Shown: positions 5,245-54,870 of the stretch, piece by piece
How positions within the stretch are numbered: position 1 is the first letter of the stretch
How the letters are laid out: each line of letters opens with the position of its first letter
Made by a program: the position numbers and the translations under genes
Source: a virus
Strand: one strand, 5' to 3'
DNA: 64,000 nucleotides
IMG/VR virus record: IMGVR_UViG_3300022902_000004
Location: 126,268-190,267 of that record
Notes under the pieces: model-generated
Database searches by the model: none
Told to the model about the DNA's origin: nothing
The model's input: only the letters and a program-made list of their open reading frames with translations

Positions 5245-6048
5245 CTAGTTGTCAAAGTTCAAAGATGGATGTTCGTGCCCGTGGCAAATCTTACATAGAA
5301 CGATTCCGGATACATTTTGTGACGTGTGGTAATCAATCACTTTTTCAACGATTATTCTATTTTGTTCTGGTGTCAAGACATGACAATCAACGTCACTGCG
5401 GAACTTCTTGATTATCGCTGCCATTTTTTCTTTATCATGATGGATGTGCAATTTTGTTGTGCTTGAGCATCTTTCACACTTGAATTTTGCTGCGGCGAGC
5501 TTTGGAAATTTCCATTCGCTGTATAGTCGGTTATTTGAATGGCAAAGAGCACCGATTGTTGACGTTCCGCCTTTCCATTGCGGGTGTTCTGATCCTGTCA
5601 AAGATGGAATAATACCGGCCAATCTATTTTTTGACATTATTTTGCTATACTTTTCTCGTTTTTCGGTTGTCCATGTTTTTGCGACCGATCTTCCGGCAAT
5701 GCGGAGTCTTTCATCATCATGCTTCGTTATCCCTTTATTCCAGACAATCATTTCTCCAGATTTCAACATTTCCCGCCGGGAAGCCTGGCTTTTCTTTTGT
5801 GCGTTTTCATTGTGGCCCCAGTTATTTTTGATACGCGCTTGATGACCTGGGCAAAACTTTGAATATCCTTTTGTGATTCCATGGAATTTTGTCTTTGACA
5901 TGCAACCACAAGCACACGTAGGCTGTTTATGCTTGACAACTGCAGCCAGATATATTGCCTCGCTTGAAAGCTTATGCGCTTTTTGTGCATGAATACGCAA
6001 TGAGTTAATTTTTTCAGTTTTGTAATTACAACTTGGACATAAAAACAT
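5245..6048 (-). CDS. freestanding homing endonuclease-like protein (HNH-like with NUMOD3-like repeats and N-terminal C2H2-type zinc finger)
   Basis: N-terminal CPSC...H...H. Repeats WNKGITKHDDE / EHPQWKGG resemble NUMOD3. C-terminal KLHIHHDKE...LTPEQNRII...CKICHGHEH is HNH-like. Inserted between tube gene and tail assembly genes. Confidence 0.5.
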   Translation of the reverse strand: MFLCPSCNYKTEKINSLRIHAQKAHKLSSEAIYLAAVVKHKQPTCACGCMSKTKFHGITKGYSKFCPGHQARIKNNWGHNENAQKKSQASRREMLKSGEMIVWNKGITKHDDERLRIAGRSVAKTWTTEKREKYSKIMSKNRLAGIIPSLTGSEHPQWKGGTSTIGALCHSNNRLYSEWKFPKLAAAKFKCERCSSTTKLHIHHDKEKMAAIIKKFRSDVDCHVLTPEQNRIIVEKVIDYHTSQNVSGIVLCKICHGHEHPSLNFDN

Positions 6049-6088
6049 AGTCCCTCCCTATGACACTAGTATATCAATGGGAGGGACT
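6049..6088 (-). promoter_or_regulatory. GC-rich hairpin (AGTCCCTCCC-loop20-GGGAGGGACT) sequestering the SD of the HNH-like HEG; doubles as terminator-like structure after tail tube gene
   Basis: The 3' arm GGGAGGGACT directly abuts the HEG ATG (6048) on the minus strand, followed by UUUUUAU. Confidence 0.55.
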
Positions 6089-6117
6089 ATGTAAAACCTC
6101 GTTATCGTAACGTTACA

Positions 6118-21320: not shown

Positions 21321-21372
21321 TCTGATGCTCCGTTACGATCATAAATATCATGTCGGGTCGCTTTATGAATAT

Positions 21373-22492: not shown

Positions 22493-22504
22493 TTCGTTCT
22501 CCTG

Positions 22505-23466: not shown

Positions 23467-23507
23467 AACCTCCGTTTAGAGATTATATGATGAATGAGCT
23501 GGATGTA

Positions 23508-23861
23508 TTATGTTACGAAATCTAAGTGGGTGTATTTCCTGGGTGCACGCTTATTTAGCATCCCCTTACCTGCGTTTGCTGCCATGAACTGAACGAATTC
23601 TTCTTTCGTTCCCGGGCTGTCATTGTGGCTAAAATCGATGTTCATTAAGCTTTCATCAGCGTAATCTTCTGATGGGAAACGGGCCGGCGGGGAAACCCTT
23701 ACATATGACTTGTATGGTTTGTAGCCCATCGTCTTCAAATCTTCCGGTGTCAGCGTTTCCATCCAGAGTTCACCAGACATAAACCTGAGCCAGGCCTCCG
23801 TTTTGTTTCCACCTAAGGATTCCCGAATGAGATGCCTGAGTTTGGATTCTGTGATTTTCAT
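23508..23861 (-). CDS. MKIT-tag family protein (putative internal protein)
   Basis: Family start MKITESKLRHLIRE at 23861. ATGA overlap with the upstream member. SD AGGA. Confidence 0.55.
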   Translation of the reverse strand: MKITESKLRHLIRESLGGNKTEAWLRFMSGELWMETLTPEDLKTMGYKPYKSYVRVSPPARFPSEDYADESLMNIDFSHNDSPGTKEEFVQFMAANAGKGMLNKRAPRKYTHLDFVT

Positions 23862-24100
23862 TCGTAATCCTGGTACACCGTGTTTTGGCTTTGTTGGCCG
23901 TCTCTTCGTCTGCCGGCCACAGATCGACGAACTGCTTGAATACATTTATCAACAATCGTCGCGGCCTGATAGTGTCCTGCTTCTTCTAGTTTCCATATTG
24001 CACTGCCGAGACTTTGTATCGCCTCACTAACTAGTCGAGCTTTTTCGTTTGAGGAGGTTTCTTTTACCAGCTTCCTGAGTTGAGATTCTGTGATTTTCAT
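23858..24100 (-). CDS. MKIT-tag family protein (putative internal protein)
   Basis: MKITESQLRKLVKE. SD AAGGTAGG. Translationally coupled (ATGA overlaps). Confidence 0.6.
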   Translation of the reverse strand: MKITESQLRKLVKETSSNEKARLVSEAIQSLGSAIWKLEEAGHYQAATIVDKCIQAVRRSVAGRRRDGQQSQNTVYQDYE

Positions 24101-24576
24101 TGATGCCTACCTTTGTATTTTCTTGTCGCTACAACCGGTTCTGCAAATGTAAGGACTGTCTCATACGTCGTTCTATTCCCAGAAAAGCGAGCCAATGACC
24201 AAGAATTGCCGGAGGAATCCGTCCATGTATGTTTCGATTTAGTCCAGTTTCCGGCGGGATGATGGTCATCCGAAGCACCTGAGTGTTTGAAACCTAACGC
24301 CTCCATCGCTTCCACCAGTTGCCAGTCAAAGAAATTCCGCAGTGTCTTCGACCATGAAACACGGGTCGCCATTCCAGGAACAGTGTCATCAACATCAGTC
24401 GATCGTCCGTTTCCTCCAGGGATTCCCGCTTTGATCGCAGCGAGCTGTTTTTCCGTTACTTCCAAACGCGTACGACTATTAAAACTGTCAGAAACAGTGA
24501 TGTACCTCTTTCGCGATGATTGCTCAGATAGCAGCTTCTTCACGACAATTTTTAGTTGTGATTCGGTGATTTTCAT
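24097..24576 (-). CDS. MKIT-tag family protein (putative internal protein, 159 aa)
   Basis: MKITESQLKIVVKKLLSE. SD AGGAAGG. Confidence 0.6.
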   Translation of the reverse strand: MKITESQLKIVVKKLLSEQSSRKRYITVSDSFNSRTRLEVTEKQLAAIKAGIPGGNGRSTDVDDTVPGMATRVSWSKTLRNFFDWQLVEAMEALGFKHSGASDDHHPAGNWTKSKHTWTDSSGNSWSLARFSGNRTTYETVLTFAEPVVATRKYKGRHQ

Positions 24577-24815
24577 TGTGACCTTCCTATCAGGGTCAGG
24601 GCAATCGCCCGAATGACAGGCAGCTTCCCAACTTGTTCACCGTGTGTCGCGAGCTCTTTCGCAATTGCTTGACAAAACTCTTTCTTTCCCAACAGGCTTT
24701 CGATGGCTTTTTGTTCGTCTGGGCCTAACTGATTGAATAGCTGTTCTGCCCGATCGGTTTTGCCTTCAGCTTGCTCTCGGATTAGTTTCCTGAGCTGTGT
24801 TTCTGTGATTTTCAT
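24573..24815 (-). CDS. MKIT-tag family protein (putative internal protein)
   Basis: MKITETQLRKLIRE. SD GGTGGAGAA. Confidence 0.6.
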   Translation of the reverse strand: MKITETQLRKLIREQAEGKTDRAEQLFNQLGPDEQKAIESLLGKKEFCQAIAKELATHGEQVGKLPVIRAIALTLIGRSQ

Positions 24816-25027
24816 TGGTTCTCCACCGCGGTGTCGATCGCACTACGAACAGCATCGGCTCCGATTTCATGACCGATGGAAGCCAGAATAACCTCGGCGC
24901 GCTTTAGGAACTCCAGTGCCCTGTCCATCTCATGATCCCAAGTGAAATCTGATGTTTCATTTTGGCCCCAGTCTGAGACGTGCGATTCTTTTATCAGTTT
25001 TCTGAGTTCTGATTCTGTGATTTTCAT
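24812..25027 (-). CDS. MKIT-tag family protein (putative internal protein)
   Basis: MKITESELRKLIKE. First gene after promoter 25083..25110. Confidence 0.6.
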   Translation of the reverse strand: MKITESELRKLIKESHVSDWGQNETSDFTWDHEMDRALEFLKRAEVILASIGHEIGADAVRSAIDTAVENQ

Positions 25028-25082
25028 TTGTGCCTCGTATATGTATCACTAAATATCTAATTGCACCCGAAATTACATAAAT

Positions 25083-25110
25083 ATTATACCACACATACAC
25101 GAATATTACA
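25083..25110 (-). promoter_or_regulatory. sigma70-like promoter (TGTAAT-N16-TATAAT with TGG extended -10), member of conserved family
   Basis: Coding-strand sequence ATGTAAT ATTCGTGTATGTGTGG TATAAT. Drives the coupled MKIT gene operon 25027..23508. Confidence 0.55.
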
Positions 25111-25112
25111 TG

Positions 25113-25149
25113 CCAAAGACGAAGGGCTCCCAGATTTCTCCAGGAGCCC
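25113..25149 (-). terminator. hairpin terminator after first MKIT-family gene
   Basis: Minus-strand RNA reads GAAGGGCUCC-loop12-GGAGCCCUUC followed by GUCUUUGG. Confidence 0.5.
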
Positions 25150-25180
25150 TTCAAACGTTTAGCTAACCGAAGCTAGCCAG

Positions 25181-25432
25181 TCACACAGACATTGGGTCAT
25201 CAAGATCGAGACCCTCAGCATTGTAGTCCATCCAGTACAAATCAGAATCGTCGGCCTCAGACTGAATGTAGTTCATTATCTCATCCTTGCTATGACCTGT
25301 TTCATGTTCCGCTTCGGCCCATGGGATTATGCCTGGTGATGGCGCGAGATTGTGGAGCGTTATCCAGAGATCACGACGCGAATGTTTTTGCTCTCTGATG
25401 AGTTTCCTGAGATTTGATTTTGTGATTTTCAT
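25181..25432 (-). CDS. MKIT-tag family protein (putative internal protein)
   Basis: MKITKSNLRKLIRE. Followed by a hairpin terminator. Confidence 0.6.
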   Translation of the reverse strand: MKITKSNLRKLIREQKHSRRDLWITLHNLAPSPGIIPWAEAEHETGHSKDEIMNYIQSEADDSDLYWMDYNAEGLDLDDPMSV

Positions 25433-25464: not shown

Positions 25465-26460
25465 TTAGAATCGAATCACACAAAATTCCTTATCGTTCTG
25501 AAAGCTCCAATCGATTGCCGCTTGATATTTCAATGGGTCGTTGTCATTTTCCTGACCTTTGACTTCGTAAAGCATTGAACCTGAGAGTGATAGGAAGTCT
25601 GGGACATAGGTTCGCTCGACGCCGTTTGGGTCTTTGTATGGGATGCGGATGTCGTGTTTCTTGGTGACTGGCTCGCCCCGAGATACACATTCGTCCAGGA
25701 AACGGGACTCCCACCCGGAGTGCATGTATTCTTCTTGCTGTGTGAACGGGTTGAACTTCCACTCGGTCTTGAATGGCGCCTGCGGCCCGATGACGCCGTC
25801 CTCTAGCAACTGGATGGCACGTTCGCTGTATACTTTTTTCATTTCTGGATTGTTTTGCCACCAACGTTTTGATGCAACTGATTTCTTCTTCTTTACATCC
25901 TGCCTTGCGGCGGTTTTATGGCCGGCAAGTCTTTGCTTCTCACGGTACTCGTCAGTTCTTAGCACCTCAACCCTTTTATCATAATCCTCGTCCCACCTTT
26001 TTTGAGCCGCCTTACTGTAACGCTCTTTTTGCTCAGATGTTCTTACCTTTCCAAAGTTTGGACTGTCGGCTCCTCGTTTTCCATACATTCCATTATTTTT
26101 GCCTTTGTTACTGTGTCCACGAAGATATTCAGGAAACCCGCCCTTCGCCCATTTGAGTTTCGTATTGCAGCCGCACTTGCATACCGGCCAGATGTTGTTA
26201 TGTTCTGTACGAACTTGATATGCCGGCCATTCAATTTTATGCTCTTTTCTTACGTGACGAGCAAGAACATTGTTTGAATTTGCAACAAGCTCGTCGCAAA
26301 TCTTACACTTTATTGTGAACTCGACGACAGGTTTTGCATAAATCTCTTTTGCGATATCCTTATGCCAATAACCAACATGAGCACCGACGGATCTCGGCGT
26401 ATTTCTCAACATCTTGTCGCAGTACTTGCACTTTACTTTTTCTATTTGTTTTTCCATCAT
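25465..26460 (-). CDS. freestanding homing endonuclease-like protein (NUMOD3-like repeats + C-terminal PD-(D/E)xK nuclease motif)
   Basis: Probable start MMEKQIEKVKCKYC at 26460. NUMOD3-like MYGKRGADSPNFGKVRTSEQKERYSK. C-terminal YVPDF...YEVKG is PD-(D/E)xK-like. Inserted between MCP gene and MKIT cluster. Confidence 0.55.
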   Translation of the reverse strand: MMEKQIEKVKCKYCDKMLRNTPRSVGAHVGYWHKDIAKEIYAKPVVEFTIKCKICDELVANSNNVLARHVRKEHKIEWPAYQVRTEHNNIWPVCKCGCNTKLKWAKGGFPEYLRGHSNKGKNNGMYGKRGADSPNFGKVRTSEQKERYSKAAQKRWDEDYDKRVEVLRTDEYREKQRLAGHKTAARQDVKKKKSVASKRWWQNNPEMKKVYSERAIQLLEDGVIGPQAPFKTEWKFNPFTQQEEYMHSGWESRFLDECVSRGEPVTKKHDIRIPYKDPNGVERTYVPDFLSLSGSMLYEVKGQENDNDPLKYQAAIDWSFQNDKEFCVIRF

Positions 26461-26508
26461 ACAATAAATATATAGGAAATGAATGAATTGTATAGGAAAA
26501 AGATGGTT

Positions 26509-26546
26509 AAAAAGGAAAAGGCGCCCTTTGTGGGGGCGCCTTTCCA
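26509..26546 (-). terminator. intrinsic terminator downstream of major capsid gene (GC hairpin GGCGCCC/GGGCGCC + U-tract), palindromic and potentially bidirectional
   Basis: Minus-strand RNA reads GGCGCCCCCACAAAGGGCGCC UUUUCCUUUUU. Preceded by a second AU-rich 8-bp hairpin (26549..26568). Confidence 0.7.
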
Positions 26547-26574: not shown

Positions 26575-28473
26575 CTAGATAACGTTCATGTCAAGACATG
26601 TCACAGTTCCGTAGAAATCGTTACGGACCATTTTCTTACCGTACCGAGTCATCACGCCCTTTCGAGGAGTGAAGTCTTCCGGTGCGAAGATGGTAGGAGT
26701 CACGATCAGCGGGACGTAAGGAGCGTAGACGTATCCTGTCTCCAGGTAGCTTCCGCCCTTGTATCCAACCAGAATCTGGTTGCGTGGGAAGTAAGGGTCC
26801 TTGTAAACCGAGAATCGATTCGACAGGGTACCAACCTTCTCAGCACCGATAACCATCGGGCCAACCTGTCCGTCAGCGTCAAGCGAGAAGCTTGGCTTGT
26901 ACAGGATTGAAGACTCGAAGATTGTTGCAACATCCGGGCCGACAACGATGAAGTTAGCCGAACCACGTAGCGTCTTACGATGAATCTCGTTAGCAACGTC
27001 GATGATGGTCTCGATAAGAGTCTCGTACCACTCTCGAACTGTACCGGTGAATGCCGGGCCAGGTGTCAACGAGTTTGTACGGTTGACTTCGATACCAGTC
27101 TGCTTGTTGAGGAACTTACCTGGGCTACGTGACCAGTAGAAGCGCGCAGCTCCAGCCTGTGTCAGCAAGTCATTCAAGATCTCTCGGTCAAGCTCCATTG
27201 CGATCTGCTCGGACAGGATGTGTGTCAGCTCAACCTCAGCGTCAAGGCTGTGGTAAGCGTTCAGGTCCTGTGCCATTTCTGGCGACCAGCGGGCACGCAA
27301 CTTACGAGTCTCAGCCACAACAGCGATTGACTCGATCTTGATGTCGATTTCTGGGATTGCAGGTGATGGGTCGACCGCGAAGTCAGACTCGAACGAAGGA
27401 ATGACCAACGTATCACCAGTGTTTGCAGCCGAATCGAGTGCAGCAGCCAATGGCTTAGCAAGCACGGTTGCAGGAGCAGCGAGGCCGCCCTGGTTAGCAC
27501 CAGACACAATCATCAAGAGCGCTGCGTTAGCATCGCCTGCCTTGACCAAGCCGTTAGGCGTGAAGTTTGTGCCGTCCCAGGTTCCCATCTGGTTCAATCG
27601 ACGGATGTTAGCTGTGCTACCACCCTGGATTGCGTTACCATTGGTGTCGTTTCCAACAACCTTGTATGGGGCCACTGGAGCCAACGAGAAGTCCTTAGAC
27701 AACGTAAGGTCAGCATCACCGAAGAGCGTACCACCTGAAGCCAACGAAACCACGAGTGCGTGATATACAGCAGAACCTGTAAGAGCACCCGGTCCGCCAC
27801 CAACTGGTGCCGCGTTGTTCTCGATTGCGTTTGTGATTTGCGGGTCGTACTGAAGCAACTTGCCGTCAGAACCTGTTGCAGCCAATGTTTTAGCATTGCT
27901 GAACACTGTTCCGGAACCGAAAGCACCTGATGCCGACAATGAAACTGCAGCAGTCACACCGTAAACTCGAGAGTAACCCGAGCCAGCAAGGTCGTACTGA
28001 CCACCAACGCCCTGCGAACCAGACTGAACGCCTTTACCCGCTGGGCTGTTGTAAATTGACGAACCTGAAGAATAAGGTGTCGCCGCGCCGACCGAACCTG
28101 CCATGTTTCCACCGTAGGTGTAGTCCATGTAGAAGAGCAGTCCGGAAGGAAGGCTCATTGGCTGGATCGAAACAAGGTCGTTCGCAATCAATCCACCGAA
28201 GACTCGGCGAACCAATGGGAATGCGATGTTTGTGAAACCACGAAGGTCACCAGACGAGGTTCCGTTAGCGCCACCGGTCGAAATCGATGATGCTTCCTTG
28301 ATAACCTGGCCAGCCTGACTTTCGAGCAAGCGCGCCATGTTCTCTCGTTTCGTGCCGTCAAGGCCGCGAAGAAGACCAGTACGGTTCCACTTCTCGATGA
28401 GTAGTTTGTTTTGCGAGCCGACGTGACGTTTTTGAATCCCCTCGGTTAGCATTTCTAGATTAAATGTAGACAT
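26575..28473 (-). CDS. major capsid protein (T4 gp23-like)
   Basis: 632 aa. IAFPLVRRVFGGLIANDLVSIQPMSLPSGLLF aligns with gp23 MVRRAIPNLIAFDICGVQPMNSPTGQVF. C-terminus YFPRNQILVGYKGG...GYVYAPYVPL...TRYG aligns with gp23 DYFTVGYKGP...GIYYAPYVAL...TRYG. Putative LLE|S processing site near residue 51. SD AAGGAG. Confidence 0.9.
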   Translation of the reverse strand: MSTFNLEMLTEGIQKRHVGSQNKLLIEKWNRTGLLRGLDGTKRENMARLLESQAGQVIKEASSISTGGANGTSSGDLRGFTNIAFPLVRRVFGGLIANDLVSIQPMSLPSGLLFYMDYTYGGNMAGSVGAATPYSSGSSIYNSPAGKGVQSGSQGVGGQYDLAGSGYSRVYGVTAAVSLSASGAFGSGTVFSNAKTLAATGSDGKLLQYDPQITNAIENNAAPVGGGPGALTGSAVYHALVVSLASGGTLFGDADLTLSKDFSLAPVAPYKVVGNDTNGNAIQGGSTANIRRLNQMGTWDGTNFTPNGLVKAGDANAALLMIVSGANQGGLAAPATVLAKPLAAALDSAANTGDTLVIPSFESDFAVDPSPAIPEIDIKIESIAVVAETRKLRARWSPEMAQDLNAYHSLDAEVELTHILSEQIAMELDREILNDLLTQAGAARFYWSRSPGKFLNKQTGIEVNRTNSLTPGPAFTGTVREWYETLIETIIDVANEIHRKTLRGSANFIVVGPDVATIFESSILYKPSFSLDADGQVGPMVIGAEKVGTLSNRFSVYKDPYFPRNQILVGYKGGSYLETGYVYAPYVPLIVTPTIFAPEDFTPRKGVMTRYGKKMVRNDFYGTVTCLDMNVI

Positions 28474-42100: not shown

Positions 42101-42352
42101 GTGGACCTCTGCTATTTCAGCCAAACCGTTGAACCACCATGTCAAATTTGAAATCAGTTCAGGGGAAATGCCTTGGGTTTTTGAGTGAACGATGTCACCG
42201 GCGATGAAAATAATGTCTGGTTTCAAAGTATGCAACTTTGAAAATGCGTCTTCAAACGCTGTGCGATATTCATCGTGCCTAGAAAGAGAGCGCCAGTGTA
42301 TATCGCTTAAATGACAGATCTTAGTAATGTGACACCTCGAGGTTATTTTCAA
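39200..42352 (-). CDS. fused Mre11-Rad50 (SbcD-SbcC; T4 gp47-gp46 equivalent) recombination nuclease/ATPase
   Basis: N-terminal calcineurin-like phosphoesterase motifs (HLSDIHW, GDIVH, GNHD, TFHG). Then Rad50 Walker A FGKNRSGKSSL, long coiled coils, C-terminal signature/Walker B LIIDEGFGALD and ILIISHVDTV. Confidence 0.8.
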   Translation of the reverse strand: MKITSRCHITKICHLSDIHWRSLSRHDEYRTAFEDAFSKLHTLKPDIIFIAGDIVHSKTQGISPELISNLTWWFNGLAEIAEVHVTLGNHDGLILNPDREDAISPILAAIDNPRIKLYKKSGTYPMNDECNICVFSCFDEAGWPDVKPEEGKINIATFHGVVHNSETDAAWALESDVNLKFFEGYDFVMLGDIHKQQILDKAGRIRFSGSAIQQNYAETPGKGFLMWDIKSKDDFDVKHVEIKHEHPFVTLDYDDDLDKLQSEMEDYPSSAHVRVKIQSAATQADMSQIRAAIKSVSGPTEIVFKREVDAATLELSDELLDETIKLDSFDAVNNLIKEFYANAKLDDETINEMAKTLSGVWKSAKLADNSTSGRWSLRRMEFDNIFGYGEGNIVNFESASGITGIFGKNRSGKSSLCGAATYALFNGTDRGAMKNMHIVNARKGYCVAKALISKKGKNYLVERQTVKKTTKKGDHHAVTHLNLFESDETGTPLKDISEEQRRETEKILRGLVGTLDDFLLTTLASQGDINRFVDQGSATRKSILAKFLRLDILDTLFELVKQDLSIAKKMLKSAPEQQFDAKIVDKTAKVKARIAERTAESDSLGKITRILNNINSALDSQTKEMYVQTEIDDQAEKIRKANEDRDEFMETMSVASLERDVINATITEMKTKIQDIDFAKLKKKKVAIVDSEHGIIVATGEIETKSSKLRADKRAVKKLSDVPCADTFPQCKYIISAKKAEKNMLEKKDDLLASKKRVAALKSSLKKLLKENVDEKLAQKQEHDEKLFLLAQSKSKLSMKILGLESRISNVERDLAVDNSMLSRMKINLCSTESAKERKILVAKKKLATEKLQEAKLRIQTLSERIGLLTSEVKRLRTDKIQFEKNNQQVQILTLLGKALSRNGIPLQIVKRKLPVINVEIANILQGITGFTVELTVDDSAGMDIILNYGDSKRVIECCSGMEKMMSSLAIRTALVRVSSLPKADVLIIDEGFGALDATNVEACTTLLRSLTKTFRLILIISHVDTVKDVVDNIIEISTTKGHDAQVKFL

Positions 42353-43130
42353 AAATCATAACATACGTCCAATTCTTGTTATTACAAAAACCTATTGCAG
42401 CTCTTTTTTTTGCATCTACTTTTTCTGGGTCCCTTATAAACCCTTTGATTTCTTCAATGCATGTACTTCCGGAACAGCTTTCTACTAGTATATCCGGTAT
42501 GTATATATGTTCGGATCCGTCATGACTATATTTTATTTTTATGCCGTGCGACGTTGTAAACTTAACAACTTCATCACATGATTCAAGAAATCGCAATCTG
42601 CGCAGTTCGTATGACGACATATAATACATTCGTTCACCAGCTTTCTTCGAATAAAACCAGCCTCTTGCTGTGTTTTTCATTTGACCGGATTTTATAAAAA
42701 TCTTCTCAATTATTTCATCAAATTCTTTTTCGCTCTTTTTTGACCAATGGTTTTCTTTTATTAGTTGCCTTGTTTTATTCGAAACTGTTTTCCCGGTGCA
42801 GGCACTGCTATGCTTGTCTTTTCTGTCGTCAGTCCAGTACTCTTTTGCGTGTTTTTTTGTCCACCTAAACGCCTTACCGGTTTCATTGATTTGTTTCATG
42901 ACCCGACTGCCATTACTCGAAATAGCTTTTCGAATTTTCTTAGTTTCTTCTTTTGGTTTTTTTGACCAGTGATTTTCTTTAATTTTTTTGCTCACTTCTT
43001 TCTTCTTTTCACTTGTCATGACATCACCATACAATCGCCGATATTCGGCAACCCCCATATTATGTTTAAACTTCAAGTGAGAAGGAGAAATAATTCCAAA
43101 TTTTTTGTGGCATAGCTGACATTCTATCAT
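42321..43130 (-). CDS. freestanding homing endonuclease-like protein (zinc finger + ENHWSKK repeats + PD-(D/E)xK-like C-domain)
   Basis: Probable start MIECQLCHKKFG at 43130 (SD GAGGT). C-terminal YIPDILVE...CIEEIKG. 3' end overlaps the sbcCD-like start. Inserted between primase and Mre11-Rad50 genes. Confidence 0.5.
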   Translation of the reverse strand: MIECQLCHKKFGIISPSHLKFKHNMGVAEYRRLYGDVMTSEKKKEVSKKIKENHWSKKPKEETKKIRKAISSNGSRVMKQINETGKAFRWTKKHAKEYWTDDRKDKHSSACTGKTVSNKTRQLIKENHWSKKSEKEFDEIIEKIFIKSGQMKNTARGWFYSKKAGERMYYMSSYELRRLRFLESCDEVVKFTTSHGIKIKYSHDGSEHIYIPDILVESCSGSTCIEEIKGFIRDPEKVDAKKRAAIGFCNNKNWTYVMIFENNLEVSHY

Positions 43131-43185
43131 TTTAGATACCTCGCAGATATAAGTATCTTGACATCGGCCATGTGGCAAATTTTTG

Positions 43186-44145
43186 TCATAGTATAGAACC
43201 GCTCTTGATTTTTGAAATCTTGTGATTGAGAAAAGAAACTGGAGTCCACCGTGCCGTCGTCGCCAAAATGTCACGAACATCGCTTTTCGTTCTGCTGCCT
43301 AGGTCGTTACCCTTGATCGTTAAGTTATAAACGGAACAACCGGCAAGAGATAAACGGCGACATACGTCATGAATTCTGCTTTCTGCATCTTCATCAAACG
43401 CCACGATAACCGTACTTTCATGTTGCTTCAACCTCATAAATAAATTACTGCCTGATGCTAGCGAAGAACCTAACACAGGAACTGTATTCTCCGGACATTT
43501 TACTGCATCGAACACACCTTCCACAAGAATGATCGGTTCATCCCAGTTGATGTCGAACTCGTTAAAAATGACCGTTCGTTTCGGCACGTCAGCATTTTTG
43601 TATTTGAATTTTGTTTCATCGATGCACCTCGCCGTGTAGTAGTTGAGCTGGCCTGAGGCTGTAAATGACGGGAAGATTGCCTTGCGGCGAAACTTGAACT
43701 CATTTGACACACATATGCGCCATCTATACATATCCATTTTCGTCAGGCCACGGGCTTTTAGGTATCTTTTTACATCATTTGCGTCGGGATCATTTTTCGC
43801 GGACATTAACAAAACTGAATCTTCCGGCAGTTCCGGCGGCAGAATGATCTCTTCGAGAGCCTGCTGGTCTGTATATGACCGGTCTTCATGAAATAATTGT
43901 GCGCATCGAGGGGCATAATTTTTAGCGAACTTGCGAAACAAAAAGTTGATGTTTTTGCCAGAGGTGCCGCATACCCAACAATGATACCAGCCGGTTGCCA
44001 GCTCAATATATAGCTTTTTCTTATTTTTTCGGCCATCTTTGCAACTTGGACAGGAAACGTGGAAGTTTACCTTCCCAGTTTCCATGTAACCAGATCCAAA
44101 CGCAGCTTCAAATAAAGCAGTCTTTTTTGATATTTCTAAGCCCAC
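43186..44145 (-). CDS. DNA primase (DnaG/T4 gp61-like)
   Basis: Zinc-binding CPSCKDGRKNKKKLYIE...WYHCWVCGTSGKNINFL. Toprim motifs ILVEGVFDA and VIVAFDEDAES. Confidence 0.8.
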   Translation of the reverse strand: MGLEISKKTALFEAAFGSGYMETGKVNFHVSCPSCKDGRKNKKKLYIELATGWYHCWVCGTSGKNINFLFRKFAKNYAPRCAQLFHEDRSYTDQQALEEIILPPELPEDSVLLMSAKNDPDANDVKRYLKARGLTKMDMYRWRICVSNEFKFRRKAIFPSFTASGQLNYYTARCIDETKFKYKNADVPKRTVIFNEFDINWDEPIILVEGVFDAVKCPENTVPVLGSSLASGSNLFMRLKQHESTVIVAFDEDAESRIHDVCRRLSLAGCSVYNLTIKGNDLGSRTKSDVRDILATTARWTPVSFLNHKISKIKSGSIL

Positions 44146-44742: not shown

Positions 44743-45741
44743 TTATGACATAATTTTTAGTTCGCGTAAATCGTGTTCTGTTATGAATCGATATTCGTTG
44801 ATCCCTTCAGACTCACAGAATTTTCGGGATGCTAATGCTTTTTGTTGAACTTTTTCTGTGTTTATAAACATTGACGGTTTCACTTCCCATATTTGTCTTG
44901 TTCCGTCACTAAATTCAACCAAAAAATCAGGAATATACCACCTTTTTTCCCCATTGTAACGATATGGAATTTTAATTGTTTCATATCCATATGATGCTAC
45001 ATTATCATCATTGTCGAGAAAGTTCATTGTTATTAGTTCCCAACCGGAACGATAGAACATTTTCTTGCCTGTTTTTGGTGAAACGTGTTCACCGGCTTGG
45101 CGATTTTTTCCGTACGGCTTTATTTTGCCAGCTAACATCATTTCTGCACGTTTTAGCGACATAATTGCCTTAGATTCAACAGTATGGCACTTTCCATACA
45201 TCGGATTGTTTTTTCCCTTCGAGCGATTTGAATTACGTTGCTCGGCGCTCATTTTCTTTTTTGATTCTTCGCTATGCTTTCGACCTGTCCATGGGTGAAC
45301 ATATGTCCCTTCTTTTTGCTTTTTACGAATTGTACGACTAATATTTGCACGGGCTTCTGGCGTCATACTTTTCTCATGCCAAATCGCATAAGTTTCTGGG
45401 TTTTTTGATTTCCATGATCCGTAACATTGAGGTTTGCAAAAGCTTCCATGAATTTCATTTGGGGCAGCCTGAGACGTCCATCGCTCAATTAGTTTTCCGC
45501 AATCTCTGCAGTTTGCTTTTGTTATTGCTGCACCGTGACCGCCGAAGCCGTCAGACTTACGATGACCGTATGTACATTTTTTTGAACATCGATGTATTTT
45601 TGCTCTTACGTATGCAGTTCTATATTTTCCAGCACGCTCAAACGTCGAACCACAAATATCACATTTGATGACTACAACCGTTGGTGGATTACCAGGAGCG
45701 CCCGGTCTTTTTCTTGGAAGTTGTTTTATTTCTATGATCAT
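44743..45741 (-). CDS. freestanding homing endonuclease-like protein (NUMOD3-like repeats + PD-(D/E)xK)
   Basis: HPWTGRKHSEESKKKMSAEQR and NNPMYGKCHTVESKAIMS are NUMOD3-like. C-terminal WYIPDFLVEF...IWEVKP. Paralogous architecture to 25465..26460. Confidence 0.55.
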   Translation of the reverse strand: MIIEIKQLPRKRPGAPGNPPTVVVIKCDICGSTFERAGKYRTAYVRAKIHRCSKKCTYGHRKSDGFGGHGAAITKANCRDCGKLIERWTSQAAPNEIHGSFCKPQCYGSWKSKNPETYAIWHEKSMTPEARANISRTIRKKQKEGTYVHPWTGRKHSEESKKKMSAEQRNSNRSKGKNNPMYGKCHTVESKAIMSLKRAEMMLAGKIKPYGKNRQAGEHVSPKTGKKMFYRSGWELITMNFLDNDDNVASYGYETIKIPYRYNGEKRWYIPDFLVEFSDGTRQIWEVKPSMFINTEKVQQKALASRKFCESEGINEYRFITEHDLRELKIMS

Positions 45742-45781
45742 GTTTCTAAGTATAGCGTCATCTCAGAAAATGTATAGGAAA

Positions 45782-48277
45782 TTAATAATCGAGGCGGACT
45801 CTTACCACGTATCGGTCGCCGTCTCGCTTAATTGCAGGTTGTGCGAAGTTGGCACGACCTACAACGTTTAGGTTCTCATCATGGAATTGCATTCCCGTCA
45901 GGTATACAAATGACTTCGCCGTTTCATTGGGGTAATCACTTGGAACCATGTCCTGGTATGTCGGGTTCGGCGATGAGTTGACGAAACCCTTGTCGACAGG
46001 GACGTTGACTTCAAGGACGTGGATATTTCGCTGGCCTTCAAATGAGATTTCCCAGGCATCAGAACCAAACATAGGAAGATTCGGAGATTTGACAACGAGG
46101 ATTCCCTCTTCATAAATCACATTTCCAACCGACGCCCAGGTTGCATGTGAGCCCTCCGAATCAGCTCGGTACAGGTTACCATACCCATCGTCTTTCAGGG
46201 TTATCTGGACCCTCCCGTTCGACCCTGTTACAGCCAAATCCTTCAACACAATCGATTTTGGTTTCAATTGGTCGCCATAGAACATGTTTGACACATCAAA
46301 GAACACAACTTCATTCGAACTCGGGTCCTTTGTTCGCTGGAGAATTGTCAGAATGTTCGCGGGAGAAACAGCAGGATCCTCAGGGGTCGGACCGATTAGC
46401 GGAGCAACAATAGATCCAGAGATAAGTTTTGCCGTCCCTTGCTGGTCATCAAATTTTGGAAGAAATTCTGTGCTGACCAGATTTTCCAACGTAATCAATG
46501 ACAGGTCAATATTTCCAAAATCATTTCTAAATTTGTCCAGAATCGAACCGCTGGTAGCTTTGTCCAAGTTTCCTGAAAGCAACATTTTGAAATTCGGTGT
46601 GAACCTTCCGTTATCGCATGGAAGAATCGACAAGTTTCGTTTTCTATGGCTGCCGGATTCGTAGATCCAGTAGTTTGCAGATTTCGGTGTGATCGTCGTC
46701 GAATCAATTTGTGATGTTTCAAGACCGAGGTGCCGCGGTGTGGTTCCACGAACAAACTCACGAGTGAAGTTTTGAATGTTTAGCTCATGACCTCCAACAC
46801 CAAATGACATCGCTACGTTGAATGGATCGTTTGTCGTTCCAGTCGTATAGAAGAATGGAGTTTGATTCACATATCGAGGTTGGACTGCTTTGACGAAGAA
46901 TGGTGGCACATAGAATAACAACCCATCATTCGCAGAGCTTCCAGACAATTTTTGATCCGTGCCGGTCACATTACCATGAATGTAGTAATCACTAAATTCG
47001 GCACCTTTCATCGATGATGTCAGTATTTGTTGGTTGCTTCGGTAATTGTCGTAAATCTTGAGATCGTGAACCTCAGCATTCAACGGGTGACTGAACGATG
47101 AATCCGTCGGGTCTGTAGCACCATCATCGTCGTTGAAGTTCAGAACTCCGAATTGCCTGTGAGCTGTTGGGTTGAAATATCCTGCGATCGGTTTTGTGTC
47201 GTAGTTGCTTCCATCATAGAAGTTGCCGATGAACAAAGCATCAGCATCATGGTACTCATTCGATGTTACAATCGGTTGCATGACTGAAGCGCTTGTGATT
47301 GGGAATGTTCCCTTTTCCTGGCCGTCGATTACAAACGATCCGGTGCCACGAGCAACATTCTCACCTCCCCAACGGACAGCAATATGGTGCCACTTGTTGA
47401 AGGATAATGAGTTGTCGTCTGACATGAATAAGAAGCCCGGGTCAGCAGTCGCTCCTGGTGCAGTAACTGAATCGCCTGAGATTGTTATTTCGCTGGGTTT
47501 GATTTCTGCCGACTGGCTCAATTGGAGCAACAAACGGAAACCATCAGGCTTCGCCGTCTTCGATGAAATAGATGAACCGGTCACCAAACTAATCGCGTAT
47601 GACGACGACATATGGAAAATCGTGCCGGGTCGGTACTCATCCCCTACGTTCTCAGTTGTGTATCTCGGGTTGACATAGAAATCAAATGTGAAACTGGAAC
47701 TTGGGGCGTAAACATTTGTATCCTCAAGCGCGACCGTTCCAGTTCCTGCCGGGTAAATCAGGCATGTGTTCTCGGGAAGGTATGAGGATGTCACGAAATT
47801 CAGCGAATGATAGTTTGAATATGCCCATTGCAAAGTTGGGTATGCATGCCTGTAGAATGGAAACAATGATGTCTTCGTTACTCGTTTGCGCTGGAAATTC
47901 TTATCAATCTTGATTCCAGGCTCAAATCGTATGACATTTTGCTTCTTGTCGAATTGTGATGAACTTACAAGTCCGTGTACCTTGGAAATATATGCATCGA
48001 TAGCGCCGAAAGCGTTTATAGAGTTAGAAGCAGCCTCGACTGCGGCAGCTCTCAGGTTTTCTACTTGTTCATCATTTGCTGGATCAGCATTCAACCCAAC
48101 GTCAGAAAACACATCCTTGAACGCAGATGAGCCATCGGCGAATAAAGGAAGGGCACCGGTGATTCCAGAAGGGGTGACATGTACCATTGCCAGCGACGCA
48201 GATTTGTAGGTGCGCGCAGGTTCGGCTCGTAACGAATACCTTTCTACATTTTCTTTCGTGATCTTGATAATTGACAT
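45782..48277 (-). CDS. large structural protein (baseplate/tail fiber module, 831 aa)
   Basis: Long ORF, Ser/Thr/Gly/Asn-rich beta-type composition typical of baseplate wedge or fiber proteins. Confidence 0.5.
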   Translation of the reverse strand: MSIIKITKENVERYSLRAEPARTYKSASLAMVHVTPSGITGALPLFADGSSAFKDVFSDVGLNADPANDEQVENLRAAAVEAASNSINAFGAIDAYISKVHGLVSSSQFDKKQNVIRFEPGIKIDKNFQRKRVTKTSLFPFYRHAYPTLQWAYSNYHSLNFVTSSYLPENTCLIYPAGTGTVALEDTNVYAPSSSFTFDFYVNPRYTTENVGDEYRPGTIFHMSSSYAISLVTGSSISSKTAKPDGFRLLLQLSQSAEIKPSEITISGDSVTAPGATADPGFLFMSDDNSLSFNKWHHIAVRWGGENVARGTGSFVIDGQEKGTFPITSASVMQPIVTSNEYHDADALFIGNFYDGSNYDTKPIAGYFNPTAHRQFGVLNFNDDDGATDPTDSSFSHPLNAEVHDLKIYDNYRSNQQILTSSMKGAEFSDYYIHGNVTGTDQKLSGSSANDGLLFYVPPFFVKAVQPRYVNQTPFFYTTGTTNDPFNVAMSFGVGGHELNIQNFTREFVRGTTPRHLGLETSQIDSTTITPKSANYWIYESGSHRKRNLSILPCDNGRFTPNFKMLLSGNLDKATSGSILDKFRNDFGNIDLSLITLENLVSTEFLPKFDDQQGTAKLISGSIVAPLIGPTPEDPAVSPANILTILQRTKDPSSNEVVFFDVSNMFYGDQLKPKSIVLKDLAVTGSNGRVQITLKDDGYGNLYRADSEGSHATWASVGNVIYEEGILVVKSPNLPMFGSDAWEISFEGQRNIHVLEVNVPVDKGFVNSSPNPTYQDMVPSDYPNETAKSFVYLTGMQFHDENLNVVGRANFAQPAIKRDGDRYVVRVRLDY

Positions 48278-54195: not shown

Positions 54196-54870
54196 TCACA
54201 CCTCCAGTGACGTATAACGCCACATGCACTTTTTATGCGTTGCTCTGTAACCTTTACAACATGCTAAAATGTTGTGGTCTTGACCACCAACGTGTTTTGC
54301 AGCATGTTGTGCCGATTCAAACCTTTGAATCTCTTTACCGGCCAAATCGAGTTGAGTTACCGGAGTTACCTTTCTTATTCTTTTTCGTAATGCAGCCGAT
54401 ATCTTCGCTCGGGCAGCCTGTGATTGCGGAGTCCCAAATGGTCGGCCACCATTACCAGGCAGGTCTGCGGCAAACAATCCTTTTGAAATTGCAGCGCAGT
54501 GTGCCTTTGATAGTTTCTTCCCCATTCGCGATTCGCTCATCTTCTTTTTTGTTTCTTCAGTGTGACGATATCCAAGCAGTCCGTCGCCGGCCAGCGTCAT
54601 GTTGTACCCACCATGATCAAGGTGTGTTTTTTCTTTTGCAATCCAAAACTTCTCTCGTTCGCGAAGAAGAGCTGTTTCACAAATCTCCAGGCACTCAACA
54701 TCAAAACTTGCTTCCCCGTATTTCCGGATTGCCTTTGATAAGACCGCTGTTGATTTCTTCCTTCGTGACGCTACAATATGCAATTTCCACCGGTCTTCGA
54801 TAGTCATCGTCGTCAACCCTACATATTGCCGATTGTTTTTGCAATTGGTAATTTTGTAGATGTTTCCCAC
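54196..54870 (-). CDS. GIY-YIG homing endonuclease (Seg-like) with NUMOD3 and NUMOD1 modules
   Basis: GNIYKITNCKNNRQYVGLTT (GIY-X10-YVG), R/E catalytic positions. NUMOD3-like GYRHTEETKKKMSESR. C-terminal NUMOD1-like FESAQHAAKHVGGQDHNILACCKGYRATHKKCMWRY. GTG start with SD AGGAGA. Confidence 0.8.
   Translation of the reverse strand: MGNIYKITNCKNNRQYVGLTTMTIEDRWKLHIVASRRKKSTAVLSKAIRKYGEASFDVECLEICETALLREREKFWIAKEKTHLDHGGYNMTLAGDGLLGYRHTEETKKKMSESRMGKKLSKAHCAAISKGLFAADLPGNGGRPFGTPQSQAARAKISAALRKRIRKVTPVTQLDLAGKEIQRFESAQHAAKHVGGQDHNILACCKGYRATHKKCMWRYTSLEV

What the first reader, a model, noticed from the sequence alone, without database searches (positions are those of the whole stretch)
25465..26460. 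Five freestanding homing-endonuclease genes at gene junctions, three sharing an unusual NUMOD3 + PD-(D/E)xK architecture
HEGs sit at 5245..6048 (HNH-like), 25465..26460, 42321..43130, 44743..45741 (all with NUMOD3-like DNA-binding repeats plus a C-terminal (I/V)PDF/I...E(V/I)K(G/P) PD-(D/E)xK-like motif) and 54196..54870 (GIY-YIG with NUMOD3 and NUMOD1). Each lies precisely between conserved genes: tube|assembly, MCP|IP locus, primase|sbcCD, wedge|ruvC, baseplate|baseplate. Several overlap or abut the neighbouring start or stop. The two PD-(D/E)xK HEGs downstream of major structural genes share an 11-nt upstream element TTTCCTATACA (plus strand tgtataggaaa at 26491 and 45768). This may be a common promoter or a remnant of the mobile cassette.
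Basis: partly seen in the sequence, partly recalled or inferred. Interest (0 to 1): 0.55.

Follow-up and report, generated by a model that had tools for sequence, protein, structure and literature searches.

The report
Five selfish nuclease genes in phage
A marine T4-like phage carries five inserted, homing-endonuclease-like genes in its structural and replication modules. Three use a TnsA/gp4-type restriction-fold nuclease that has not been characterised experimentally as a homing enzyme, so the kind of element is familiar but the nuclease type and one insertion are new details.

Summary
All five ORFs exist at the stated coordinates, and each is an insertion when compared with related phages.

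- **HEG1 (25465-26460):** two C2H2-type zinc fingers, a Cys-rich knuckle, weak NUMOD3-like repeats and a C-terminal PD-(D/E)xK nuclease. E251, D288, E299 and K301 are invariant in 53 homologues. The AF2 model (pLDDT 91) matches TnsA best. Its family always sits 100-140 nt after the gp23 capsid gene. It is present in only about 9 of roughly 60 IMG/VR relatives with enough downstream sequence, is under purifying selection (dN/dS 0.16), and shows chimeras and one capsid/HEG identity inversion.
- **HEG2 (42321-43130):** absent from relatives with 94-96% identical primase. It sits inside codon 10 of sbcCD. A 27-nt wild-type copy of the gene start lies upstream, and a copy changed in each of its first seven codons lies at the HEG's 3' end.
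- **HEG3 (44743-45741):** NUMOD3 and TnsA-like hits both pass Pfam thresholds. A relative with a 94% identical upstream protein keeps only its last 37 codons. Its nuclease domain is a full-length homologue of the T4 gp4 head-completion nuclease.
- **The 11-mer:** real, and part of a shared promoter-like arrangement.

Cleavage and homing are inferred. The architecture is common in metagenomes, so it is a new variant of a known kind.

The parts
25465..26460 (-). HEG1: 331-aa freestanding endonuclease-like ORF. It has two C2H2-type zinc fingers (about aa 11-33 and 52-74), a CxCGC...GH knuckle (aa 94-116), NUMOD3-like repeats (about aa 118-150), a helical linker and a C-terminal nuclease.
   Evidence: dN/dS is 0.16 against the L001 copy.
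25468..25785 (-). TnsA/gp4-like PD-(D/E)xK nuclease domain of HEG1 (aa 226-331), with catalytic E251, D288, E299 and K301.
   Evidence: The four residues are invariant in 53 sequences. Foldseek's best PDB hits are TnsA 1t0f/1f1z at probability 1.0. This stretch is 82% identical in nucleotides in L108, while the rest of that HEG cannot be aligned.
26515..26545 (-). Intrinsic terminator hairpin of the gp23 capsid gene. The HEG1 cassette starts just downstream of it.
   Evidence: 12-bp stem, 8 GC pairs, T tail. An equivalent hairpin follows gp23 in the related loci displayed, whether or not they carry the HEG.
26467..26499 (-). HEG1 promoter-like region: TTTCCTATACA (26489-26499), 16 nt, TATATT (26467-26472), 6 nt, ATG. 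A second one-mismatch copy, TTTCCTATATA, lies at 26469-26479. There is no Shine-Dalgarno sequence.
   Evidence: A 10-nt core, TTCCTATACA, is conserved upstream of the 88%-identical HEG in L001/L002.
42321..43130 (-). HEG2: 269-aa ORF with an N-terminal CxxC...H finger, loose K-rich repeats and a C-terminal TnsA-like nuclease.
   Evidence: Absent in L092, L101 and L102.
43163..43189 (-). Upstream, wild-type-like copy of the first 9 codons of sbcCD (ATGACAAAAATTTGCCACATGGCCGAT). It now heads a 20-codon remnant ORF (43127-43189) whose stop overlaps the HEG2 ATG.
   Evidence: It matches the HEG-less allele L092 at 25 of 27 nt.
42302..42328 (-). Downstream copy of the same 9 codons (ATTACTAAGATCTGTCATTTAAGCGAT, encoding ITKICHLSD), embedded in the HEG2 3' end. 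It restores the sbcCD N-terminus. The new in-frame start candidate is the TTG at 42352.
   Evidence: There are 8 substitutions in the first 21 nt, then 20 identical bases, and the next roughly 100 nt are about 89% identical.
43150..43156 (-). ATACTTA motif at the left edge of the HEG2 cassette, a candidate late-promoter core.
   Evidence: 9 of 10 copies are on the coding strand and 8 lie in intergenic or cassette sequence just upstream of gene starts (including capsid, sheath and tube); expected 3.2.
44743..45741 (-). HEG3: 332-aa ORF with Cys-rich N-terminal fingers, two NUMOD3 repeats and a gp4/TnsA-like nuclease (aa about 201-328).
44855..45783 (-). Segment missing in the close relative L102. 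It covers the HEG3 promoter region and codons 1 to about 295. Only the last 37 codons survive in L102, directly after the stop of the upstream 831-aa gene.
45742..45781 (-). HEG3 promoter-like region: TTTCCTATACA (45771-45781), 16 nt, TATACT (overlapping ATACTTA at 45747-45753), 7 nt, ATG. There is no Shine-Dalgarno sequence.
5245..6048 (-). HNH-like freestanding ORF (267 aa). Its N-terminal C2H2 plus CxCGC module is homologous to that of HEG1. The C-terminal part carries CxxC..HH..H..CxxCH.
   Evidence: Sporadic after the tube gene. dN/dS 0.11.
6045..6092 (-). RNA hairpin that pairs the Shine-Dalgarno sequence and the AUG of the HNH-like ORF. The loop contains TATACTA.
   Evidence: -32.8 kcal/mol, z -7.2. 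Conserved in L111, with changes on both arms that keep the stem paired.
54196..54870 (-). GIY-YIG / NUMOD3 / NUMOD1 freestanding endonuclease ORF (224 aa, GTG start after AGGAG).
   Evidence: Absent in L191, where the flanking genes are 75 nt apart.

Best explanation
**What it is.** The ORF at 25465-26460 and its four companions are freestanding homing-endonuclease genes, that is, selfish site-specific DNA nucleases. They sit in a T4-like marine phage.

**Architecture.** HEG1, HEG2 and HEG3 have an N-terminal modular DNA-binding region (zinc fingers, with or without NUMOD3 repeats). It tethers a C-terminal TnsA/gp4-type PD-(D/E)xK nuclease with an E...D...ExK active site.

**Proposed mechanism.** In a mixed infection with a relative that lacks the gene, the enzyme cuts a site in or beside the conserved gene next to its own insertion point:
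- HEG1: the gp23 3' end or its terminator region.
- HEG2: the start of sbcCD.
- HEG3: the junction between the 831-aa structural gene and the RuvC-like gene.

Recombinational repair from the HEG-carrying genome then copies the cassette and flanking markers into the cut genome. The carrier is immune because the site is split or changed.

**HEG2 in detail.** The cassette sits inside codon 10 of sbcCD. It leaves a truncated wild-type copy of the gene start upstream. Its own 3' end carries a copy changed in each of the first seven codons, which restores the protein.

**Expression.** Each cassette appears to bring its own weak signals. HEG1 and HEG3 have TTTCCTATACA-N16-TATAYT directly before an ATG with no Shine-Dalgarno sequence. 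HEG2 and HEG3 have an ATACTTA late-promoter-like motif.

**Shown here:** ORFs, domains, conserved catalytic residues, fold, sporadic and site-faithful distribution, exact insertion/deletion boundaries, purifying selection, and chimeric or incongruent HEGs.

**Inferred:** DNA cleavage, the target sites, gene conversion and the promoter function.
For: - **Domains and fold:**. Invariant E251/D288/E299/K301 and zinc ligands in 53 sequences. AF2 pLDDT 91, with TnsA as best PDB match.
- **Site fidelity with patchiness:** every examined HEG1 homologue, down to 33% identity, starts 92-147 nt after the gp23 stop. Most gp23 loci lack it, including the closest IMG/VR relatives at 77-78%.
- **Degenerate copies:** L057 keeps the N-terminal half only. 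L102 keeps the last 37 codons of HEG3.
- **Clean absence of HEG2** in genomes with 94-96% identical primase, and the duplicated, altered target segment.
- **HEG3 homologues** at 40-42% identity occupy the same junction in L195-L197.
- **Horizontal signal:** L040 against L059 has capsid 70% but HEG 82% identity. The L108 HEG is a chimera: its N-half is 62% identical to the L040 type and its nuclease 85% to the window type, while its capsid is 92% identical to the window.
- **Selection:** dN/dS is 0.16 for HEG1 and 0.11 for the HNH-like ORF.
- **Module sharing:** the HEG1 and HNH-like ORFs share the zinc-finger module, E 6e-7.
- **Precedents:** T4 seg and mob genes, segD next to gene 23, hairpin and late-promoter control (PMC2988022). 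HEGs cluster at capsid and terminase genes and shuffle domains (PMC10448857).
Against: - No biochemical evidence exists for cleavage or specificity in any member of this nuclease/DNA-binding combination.
- No close HEG1-less relative was found, so its insertion boundaries and target remain undefined.
- The last 60 nt of gp23 show no position that separates HEG+ from HEG- loci.
- dS of HEG1 (0.59) is close to that of gp23 (0.51) against L001, so recent history there is vertical.
- Site fidelity with sporadic loss could also arise by vertical descent with deletion.
- Classical double-strand-break repair homing does not create target duplications, so the 27-nt duplication at HEG2 needs an extra, unknown step.
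- NUMOD3 is weak in HEG1 and absent in HEG2.
Confidence: 0.75

Rival explanations
1. Vertically inherited accessory nucleases, not currently mobile. These would be old lineage-specific genes that are repeatedly lost. They could serve the phage itself, for example by excluding co-infecting relatives, degrading host or satellite DNA, or acting as DNA-binding regulators, without copying themselves.
For: - HEG1 and gp23 have similar dS against L001.
- Purifying selection (dN/dS 0.11-0.16) shows maintained function.
- Position is conserved down to 33% identity.
- Domestication of HEG domains in phage-satellite conflict is documented (PMC10448857).
Against: - One pair has HEG identity above capsid identity, and L108 carries a chimeric HEG.
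- Three different nuclease types with shared DNA-binding modules sit at five separate junctions of one genome.
- HEG2 has a precise insertion with an altered copy of the target segment.
- Marker exclusion is itself the homing mechanism seen from the host's side.
Confidence: 0.15
2. HEG3 is the phage's own gp4 head-completion nuclease carrying an N-terminal DNA-binding extension. On this reading it is a morphogenetic gene rather than a selfish one.
For: - The HEG3 C-terminal domain aligns with full-length T4-type gp4 (33% identity, E 1e-17), including the C-terminal ITEH-L motif.
- The window has no stand-alone gp4-like ORF.
- In L195/L197 a stand-alone 133- or 96-aa gp4-like gene lies at this same junction.
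Against: - L102, whose upstream 831-aa protein is 94% identical, has deleted all but 37 codons of HEG3 and carries no gp4-like gene at that junction.
- Nine more distant fetched relatives covering the junction have the two flanking genes adjacent with nothing between them.
- L195/L197 carry both the HEG3 homologue and a separate gp4-like gene.
- Only 64 kb of a genome that may reach about 318 kb was seen, so a true gp4 may lie elsewhere.
Confidence: 0.07
3. TnsA-type transposon components: the three ORFs are the endonuclease subunit of Tn7-like elements.
For: The best Pfam, NCBIfam and PDB matches are to TnsA.
Against: - No TnsA C-terminal domain was detected in the three ORFs.
- No TnsB, TnsC or transposase hit was found in the flanking genes that were scanned. 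The flanks are conserved phage genes and no element-end repeats were seen in the junction sequences read; no repeat search was run.
- NCBIfam scores are far below the cut-off (28-43 bits against 110).
- The cassettes are single genes of 0.8-1.0 kb.
Confidence: 0.01

Closest known systems
T4 freestanding homing endonucleases (seg and mob genes; for example segD between genes 23 and 24, SegF and SegG 'intronless homing')
   Same: - Single-gene cassettes wedged between or into conserved phage genes.
- Sporadic among relatives.
- N- or C-terminal NUMOD-type DNA-binding modules.
- Weak or late expression signals and RBS-sequestering hairpins.
- One sits next to the major capsid gene.

Source: PMC2988022.
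   Different: The T4 enzymes use GIY-YIG or HNH nucleases. Three of the five here use a TnsA/gp4-type PD-(D/E)xK nuclease placed C-terminal to the DNA-binding region.
EDxHD family (I-Bth0305I, phage Hef; Vsr-like nuclease)
   Same: - Same domain order: N-terminal NUMOD-type DNA-binding region, C-terminal restriction-fold-superfamily nuclease.
- Found in phages and marine metagenomes, intron-borne or freestanding.

Sources: PMC3239194, PMC2677866.
   Different: - The catalytic motif there is EDxHD on a Vsr-like core. Here it is the canonical E...PD...ExK on a TnsA-like core.
- NUMOD2/HTH there; zinc fingers and NUMOD3 here.
- Only 2 of 53 family members give even a weak DUF559/Vsr-type hit.
I-Ssp6803I (PD-(D/E)xK homing endonuclease, PF11645)
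   Same: It is the recognised precedent that the restriction fold can serve as a homing endonuclease (PMC3424549, PMC6083498).
   Different: - It is a small, intron-encoded tetramer without separate DNA-binding modules.
- No PF11645 hit was found for any of the three ORFs.
T4 gp4 head-completion nuclease and Tn7 TnsA N-terminal domain (PF08722)
   Same: Same nuclease domain family. HEG3 aligns with full-length gp4 at 33% identity. TnsA is the best structural match for HEG1.
   Different: - gp4 is a protein of about 150 aa with a single domain and a role in morphogenesis.
- TnsA works with TnsB and TnsC and has its own C-terminal domain.
- The ORFs here add a 150-225 aa DNA-binding region and are dispensable insertions.
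Annotated but uncharacterised 'endonuclease' genes of cultured phages: Yersinia phage phiR1-RT g167 (and the TG1, HY03 and SG1 group) and Bacillus phage Moonbeam gp26
   Same: - The TnsA-like nuclease passes Pfam thresholds in both.
- In phiR1-RT the gene splits the terminase large-subunit gene. This is another insertion into an essential gene.

Source.
   Different: - They are shorter (199-253 aa) and sit at different insertion sites.
- Only Moonbeam gp26 gives a Pfam NUMOD3 hit; phiR1-RT g167 does not.
- No published cleavage data were found in the searches made here.

Membership tests
Homing endonuclease gene (functional class) | Encodes a nuclease domain with intact catalytic residues | tested here: met
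Homing endonuclease gene (functional class) | Sporadic presence or absence at one conserved genomic site among related genomes | tested here: met
Homing endonuclease gene (functional class) | Evidence of horizontal spread (incongruence with flanking genes) | tested here: inconclusive
   There is one clear inversion (L040/L059: capsid 70%, HEG 82%) and one chimeric HEG (L108). The window/L001 pair looks vertical. No full phylogeny was made.
Homing endonuclease gene (functional class) | Cleaves the HEG-less allele and is copied into it by repair | not testable with these tools
   This needs enzyme assays or phage crosses.
PD-(D/E)xK superfamily, TnsA-like N-terminal domain (PF08722) | Sequence match above the Pfam gathering score | tested here: inconclusive
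   HEG3 scores 47.5 bits against a cut-off of 26.5 (met). HEG2 scores 22.8 and HEG1 19.7 bits (below). 44 of 53 members of the HEG1 alignment match at E<=0.01.
PD-(D/E)xK superfamily, TnsA-like N-terminal domain (PF08722) | Restriction-endonuclease fold with the E...D...ExK catalytic constellation | tested here: met
Tn7-type TnsA transposase subunit | TnsA C-terminal domain and partner genes tnsB and tnsC in an element with terminal repeats | tested here: not met
   No such domains in the ORFs or in the flanking genes that were scanned. NCBIfam scores are far below the cut-off. No dedicated repeat search was run.
NUMOD3-containing nucleases (PF07460) | NUMOD3 repeat above the gathering score | tested here: inconclusive
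   HEG3 scores 48.7 bits with 2 repeats, and the GIY-YIG ORF 36.6 bits (both met). HEG1 has E 0.6 only, although 20 of 53 family members match. HEG2 has none.
T4 gp4 head-completion nuclease (orthologue) | Single-domain protein of about 150 aa, conserved in T4-like phages and required for head-tail joining | tested here: not met
   The domain is homologous. But HEG3 has a 200-aa extension, is deleted in L102, and coexists with a separate gp4-like gene in L195/L197. Essentiality is not testable here.
EDxHD (I-Bth0305I) and I-Ssp6803I homing endonuclease families | EDxHD motif on a Vsr-like core, or a PF11645 match | tested here: not met
   No PF11645 hit and no EDxHD motif. There are weak DUF559 hits in 2 of 53 members only.
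GIY-YIG homing endonucleases (I-TevI-like, TIGR01453) | GIY-YIG domain plus NUMOD DNA-binding tail, above the curated cut-off | tested here: met
   54196-54870 scores 109.8 bits against 56.05 on TIGR01453, with GIY-YIG, NUMOD3 and NUMOD1 Pfam hits.
HNH / His-Me finger endonucleases | Beta-beta-alpha-metal core with the CxxC...HH...(N/H)...CxxCH pattern | tested here: met

The most novel reading that the evidence does not exclude
The zinc-finger/NUMOD3 plus TnsA/gp4-type nucleases are an active homing-endonuclease family that has not been characterised experimentally. It is distinct from the six recognised families and was built from the same nuclease that T4-like phages use for head completion (gp4).

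HEG2 shows a new insertion strategy. The cassette lands inside the first codons of an essential gene. It carries its own altered copy of those codons, which both rebuilds the gene and makes the carrier allele uncuttable.
Probability: 0.4. Interest if true: 0.65.

Novelty: new variant of a known kind. Interest (0 to 1): 0.45.

Why it matters
- **Density.** Freestanding homing endonucleases shape recombination boundaries and marker exclusion in phages. Five of them in 64 kb is a density comparable with T4.
- **A possible new family.** If the TnsA/gp4-type enzymes cut specifically, they add a modular nuclease family to the six known homing-endonuclease families. They also link a selfish nuclease to a core morphogenetic one.
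- **A testable target.** The HEG2 junction gives an unusually explicit prediction: the HEG-less sbcCD start sequence should be cut, and the changes in the carrier's copy should give immunity.
- **Annotation.** Otherwise the finding is useful mainly for annotating a large group of uncultured marine T4-like phages. Hundreds of such ORFs are currently unnamed.

Tried and rejected
- **GenBank phages.** Nucleotide and protein searches with the HEG1 region found no close relative, only an uncultured 484-kb phage. Context therefore had to come from metagenomes.
- **Target-site signature in gp23.** I compared the last 60 nt of gp23 and the downstream hairpins in HEG+ and HEG- loci. No discriminating position was found.
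- **Small hairpin after the gp23 stop.** I considered it HEG-specific, but it also occurs in HEG- loci.
- **The 11-mer as a general promoter.** There are only two exact copies in the window, and among the fetched loci its 10-nt core occurs only in L001/L002. It is therefore specific to these cassettes.
- **RNA structure upstream of the GIY-YIG ORF.** Folding showed nothing (z +1.4).
- **L092/L101 and the HEG3 site.** These loci start only 47 nt upstream of the RuvC-like gene. That stretch matches neither the upstream gene's end nor HEG3, so they say nothing about HEG3.
- **dN/dS for the L108 nuclease domain.** One computation was out of frame and is disregarded (last line).
- **Tn7-like transposon reading.** Rejected for lack of partner genes.
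Full report
**Setting**

The window is the structural and replication module of an uncultured marine T4-like phage. Nearly all genes are on the minus strand. Identified genes include:
- the gp23 capsid protein at 26575-28473
- the tail tube (phrog_4542)
- a baseplate hub
- a primase (phrog_47)
- a RuvC-like resolvase (phrog_159)
- a fused Mre11/Rad50-type sbcCD ORF

No close relative exists among GenBank phages. All comparative evidence therefore comes from metagenomic contigs.

**Observation**

The five ORFs exist as described.

*The three PD-(D/E)xK candidates*
- They share a C-terminal domain with S-x-(W/Y)-E, (I/V)PD(F/I) and E-(V/I)-K. Pairwise E values for the nuclease domains range from 1e-6 to 5e-16.
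- Pfam places HEG3 (44743-45741) in NUMOD3 and Tn7_TnsA-like_N above threshold.
- HEG2 (42321-43130) and HEG1 (25465-26460) hit TnsA-like below threshold. HEG1 hits NUMOD3 only at E 0.6, and HEG2 not at all.
- PHROG 15427, 'endonuclease', covers all three.

*The HEG1 family*
- There are 72 clusters, all metagenomic and unnamed.
- In a 53-sequence alignment (HEG1, 50 of its homologues, plus HEG2 and HEG3), E251, D288, E299, K301 and the first zinc-finger cysteines are invariant.
- 44/53 members hit TnsA-like, 20/53 NUMOD3 and 13/53 C2H2 fingers.
- The AlphaFold model (pLDDT 91.4) has TnsA (1t0f, 1f1z) as its best PDB matches at probability 1.0. Other restriction-fold nucleases follow with weaker scores, and CTCF-type zinc fingers match the N-terminus.

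*The other two ORFs*
- The GIY-YIG ORF is an unambiguous I-TevI-like protein.
- Its N-terminal zinc module is homologous to that of HEG1 (E 6e-7). One DNA-binding module is therefore combined with two different nucleases.

**Are they insertions or core genes?**

*HEG1*
- Every homologue whose context I read, down to 33% identity, starts 92-147 nt after the gp23 stop, just beyond its terminator. The next gene downstream varies.
- Among 80 IMG/VR loci with gp23 relatives, only about 9 of the roughly 60 with enough downstream sequence carry a homologue. The closest (77-78% capsid identity) do not.
- One copy, in L057, retains only the N-terminal half.
- In 48 HEG1-less loci the first downstream ORF includes five other NUMOD3 proteins and one restriction-fold protein, as well as sulfotransferases, Mom-like proteins and capsid paralogues. 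The site is a hypervariable hot spot.

*HEG2*
- L092, L101 and L102 have 94-96% identical primase and 89-91% identical sbcCD. In them the primase stop overlaps the sbcCD start, with no HEG.

*HEG3*
- L102 keeps only the last 37 codons, about 88% identical in nucleotides, directly after the stop of the upstream 831-aa gene. This is a deletion of about 0.93 kb.
- The nine more distant fetched relatives that cover this junction have the two flanking genes adjacent.
- HEG3 homologues at 40-42% identity occupy the same junction in L195-L197.

*The other two*
- The HNH-like ORF follows the tube gene as a full-length homologue in 2 of about 70 loci, with N-terminal-only matches in 2 more.
- The GIY-YIG ORF is absent in L191.

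None of the five is a core gene.

**The HEG2 junction**

Compared with the HEG-less allele, the window has two copies of the first 27 nt of sbcCD.
- The upstream copy (43163-43189) is wild-type-like, matching at 25 of 27 nt. It now heads a 20-codon remnant ORF whose stop overlaps the HEG2 ATG.
- The downstream copy (42302-42328) lies in the HEG2 3' end. It differs in each of its first seven codons, with 8 changes in 21 nt. It still encodes TKICH(L)SD. After it, 20 bases are identical to the HEG-less allele.
- With about 11% background divergence, 8 or more changes in 21 nt has a binomial probability of about 1e-3. This is my own calculation, made after seeing the pattern.
- sbcCD must now start at an in-frame TTG (42352) inside HEG2.

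This is the pattern expected if the recognition site spans the sbcCD start. The carrier allele would then be protected both by interruption and by the changed bases. The duplication itself is not explained by simple double-strand-break repair.

**Mobility and selection**

- Against L001 (capsid 93%, HEG1 88%), dN/dS is 0.10 for the capsid and 0.16 for HEG1, with similar dS. The gene is functional and recently co-inherited.
- The HNH-like ORF gives 0.11.
- Across the family there is incongruence. L040 and L059 have 70% identical capsids but 82% identical HEGs.
- L108's capsid is 92% identical to the window. Its HEG has a nuclease domain 85% identical to HEG1. Its N-terminal half resembles the L040 type (62%) and is essentially unrelated to HEG1.

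This indicates exchange and domain shuffling at the same site. Barth et al. describe the same behaviour for other phage HEGs (PMC10448857).

**Expression signals**

*Terminator and the shared 11-mer*
- The gp23 terminator (26515-26545) precedes HEG1.
- The 11-mer TTTCCTATACA occurs exactly twice. In both cases it is followed by 16 nt, a TATAYT hexamer and 6-7 nt before an ATG that lacks a Shine-Dalgarno sequence.
- This reads as a shared promoter-like arrangement that would give near-leaderless mRNAs.
- It belongs to the cassettes. A 10-nt core is retained upstream of HEG1 in L001/L002, and it is lost together with HEG3 in L102.

*ATACTTA*
- The motif is enriched: 10 copies against 3.2 expected. 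Nine are on the coding strand.
- Eight lie just upstream of gene starts, in intergenic or cassette sequence. These include the capsid, sheath and tube genes, HEG2 and HEG3.
- I take it as the candidate late-promoter core.

*Hairpin at the HNH-like ORF*
- A 14-bp hairpin (-32.8 kcal/mol, z -7.2) buries the start codon and Shine-Dalgarno sequence of the HNH-like ORF. Its loop holds TATACTA.
- It is conserved in L111, with changes on both arms that keep the stem paired.
- This mirrors the T4 arrangement in which late transcripts that start inside such a structure free the ribosome-binding site (PMC2988022).

All promoter functions are inferred.

**Comparison with known systems**

- The behaviour matches T4 seg and mob genes. 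T4 itself has segD beside gene 23 (PMC2988022).
- The nuclease type does not match. [quoted passage not shown]
- The present proteins share domain order with the EDxHD family, that is, N-terminal NUMOD region and C-terminal restriction-superfamily nuclease (PMC3239194). They use a canonical E...PD...ExK TnsA-like core instead. They give no I-Ssp6803I hit.
- The HEG3 nuclease domain is a full-length homologue of the T4-type gp4 head-completion nuclease (33% identity, E 1e-17). In L195/L197 a stand-alone gp4-like gene lies immediately after the HEG3 homologue.
- The same nuclease, joined to an N-terminal region that gives a Pfam NUMOD3 hit in Moonbeam only, exists in cultured phages. phiR1-RT g167 splits the terminase large-subunit gene, and Moonbeam gp26 is another example.
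- An exhaustive search gives 3392 representative clusters at E<=1e-3 and 41 at E<=1e-30. Many are 200-400 aa proteins that match the NUMOD3-plus-nuclease part.
- The architecture is therefore common but, as far as my searches show, uncharacterised experimentally.

**Verdict**

Refinements:
- NUMOD3 is solid in only one of the three ORFs.
- HEG2 is inserted within a gene.
- The nuclease is gp4/TnsA-type.
- The architecture is not rare.

Cleavage, target sites and homing remain inferred. I rate it a new variant of a known kind, with moderate interest.

Noticed in passing
window 20692-25432 and 6661-7179 (also about 7183-7449), minus strand: At least eight small ORFs begin with a near-identical leader, MKIT(E/K/R)(S/T/N/R)(Q/E/N)(L/I)R(K/N)(L/V)(I/V)(R/K)E. 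Five of them form a tandem run downstream of HEG1. This resembles the shared capsid-targeting leader of T4 internal proteins. The copy number differs between the window, L001 and L108.
   Followed up: partly
window 4307, 6647, 13768, 17555, 28494, 30285, 43150, 45747 (minus strand): ATACTTA lies 10-50 nt upstream of the capsid, sheath, tube and other structural gene starts. There are 10 copies against 3.2 expected, and 9 are on the coding strand. It is probably this phage group's late-promoter core, differing from T4's TATAAATA.
   Followed up: partly
window 6045-6092, minus strand: A very stable hairpin (-32.8 kcal/mol, z -7.2) pairs the Shine-Dalgarno sequence and the AUG of the HNH-like ORF. 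A TATACTA sits in the loop. It is conserved in L111, with changes on both arms that keep the stem paired. This is the design known for T4 I-TevI, segB and mobE.
   Followed up: partly
L195 6011-6412; L197 1621-1911: A stand-alone 133-aa (or truncated 96-aa) TnsA-like, gp4-like gene sits immediately downstream of the HEG3 homologue. It is about 41% identical to the HEG3 nuclease domain. This hints that the HEG nuclease was recruited from, or targets the neighbourhood of, the head-completion nuclease gene.
   Followed up: partly
window 39200-42352, minus strand: The Mre11-like (Metallophos) and Rad50/SbcC-like parts form one 1050-aa ORF here and in L092/L102. In L195/L197 they are separate genes: 228 and 861 aa in L195, and 216 and 858 aa with an extra 193-aa ORF between them in L197.
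   Followed up: no
window 4336-5118, minus strand: A 260-aa ORF with no Pfam or PHROG hit lies next to the HNH-like ORF. Among the 80 tube-gene loci it is found only in the close relative L111. It is a second sporadic insert between the tube and baseplate-hub genes.
   Followed up: no
L192 (Yersinia phage phiR1-RT) 1477-4326: The terminase large-subunit gene is annotated as two pieces (g166, g168). They are separated by g167, a 199-aa TnsA-like 'endonuclease' whose ends overlap both pieces.
   Followed up: partly
L057 7032-7586: A 184-aa ORF after gp23 matches only residues 6-189 of HEG1 (62% identity). It is a copy that has lost the nuclease domain, possibly a decaying HEG or a domesticated DNA-binding protein.
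   Followed up: no
window 48344-52141, minus strand: A block of small ORFs, including an HD-domain protein (50826-51500), sits between large conserved structural-module genes. It looks like another accessory island.
   Followed up: no
window 18065-19731, plus strand: This is the only sizeable plus-strand stretch in the window. It lies at the far end of the variable region that starts with HEG1. In the HEG-less relative L014 the capsid gene is followed by the neck genes within about 1.3 kb, against about 8.5 kb here.
   Followed up: no
proteins P0073 and P0193 (identical to window 5245-6048 and 44743-45741): Both identical proteins are recorded on 13-14 contigs, the longest 318,267 bp. The source phage may therefore be a jumbo phage, or the contig may be a chimera.
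   Followed up: no
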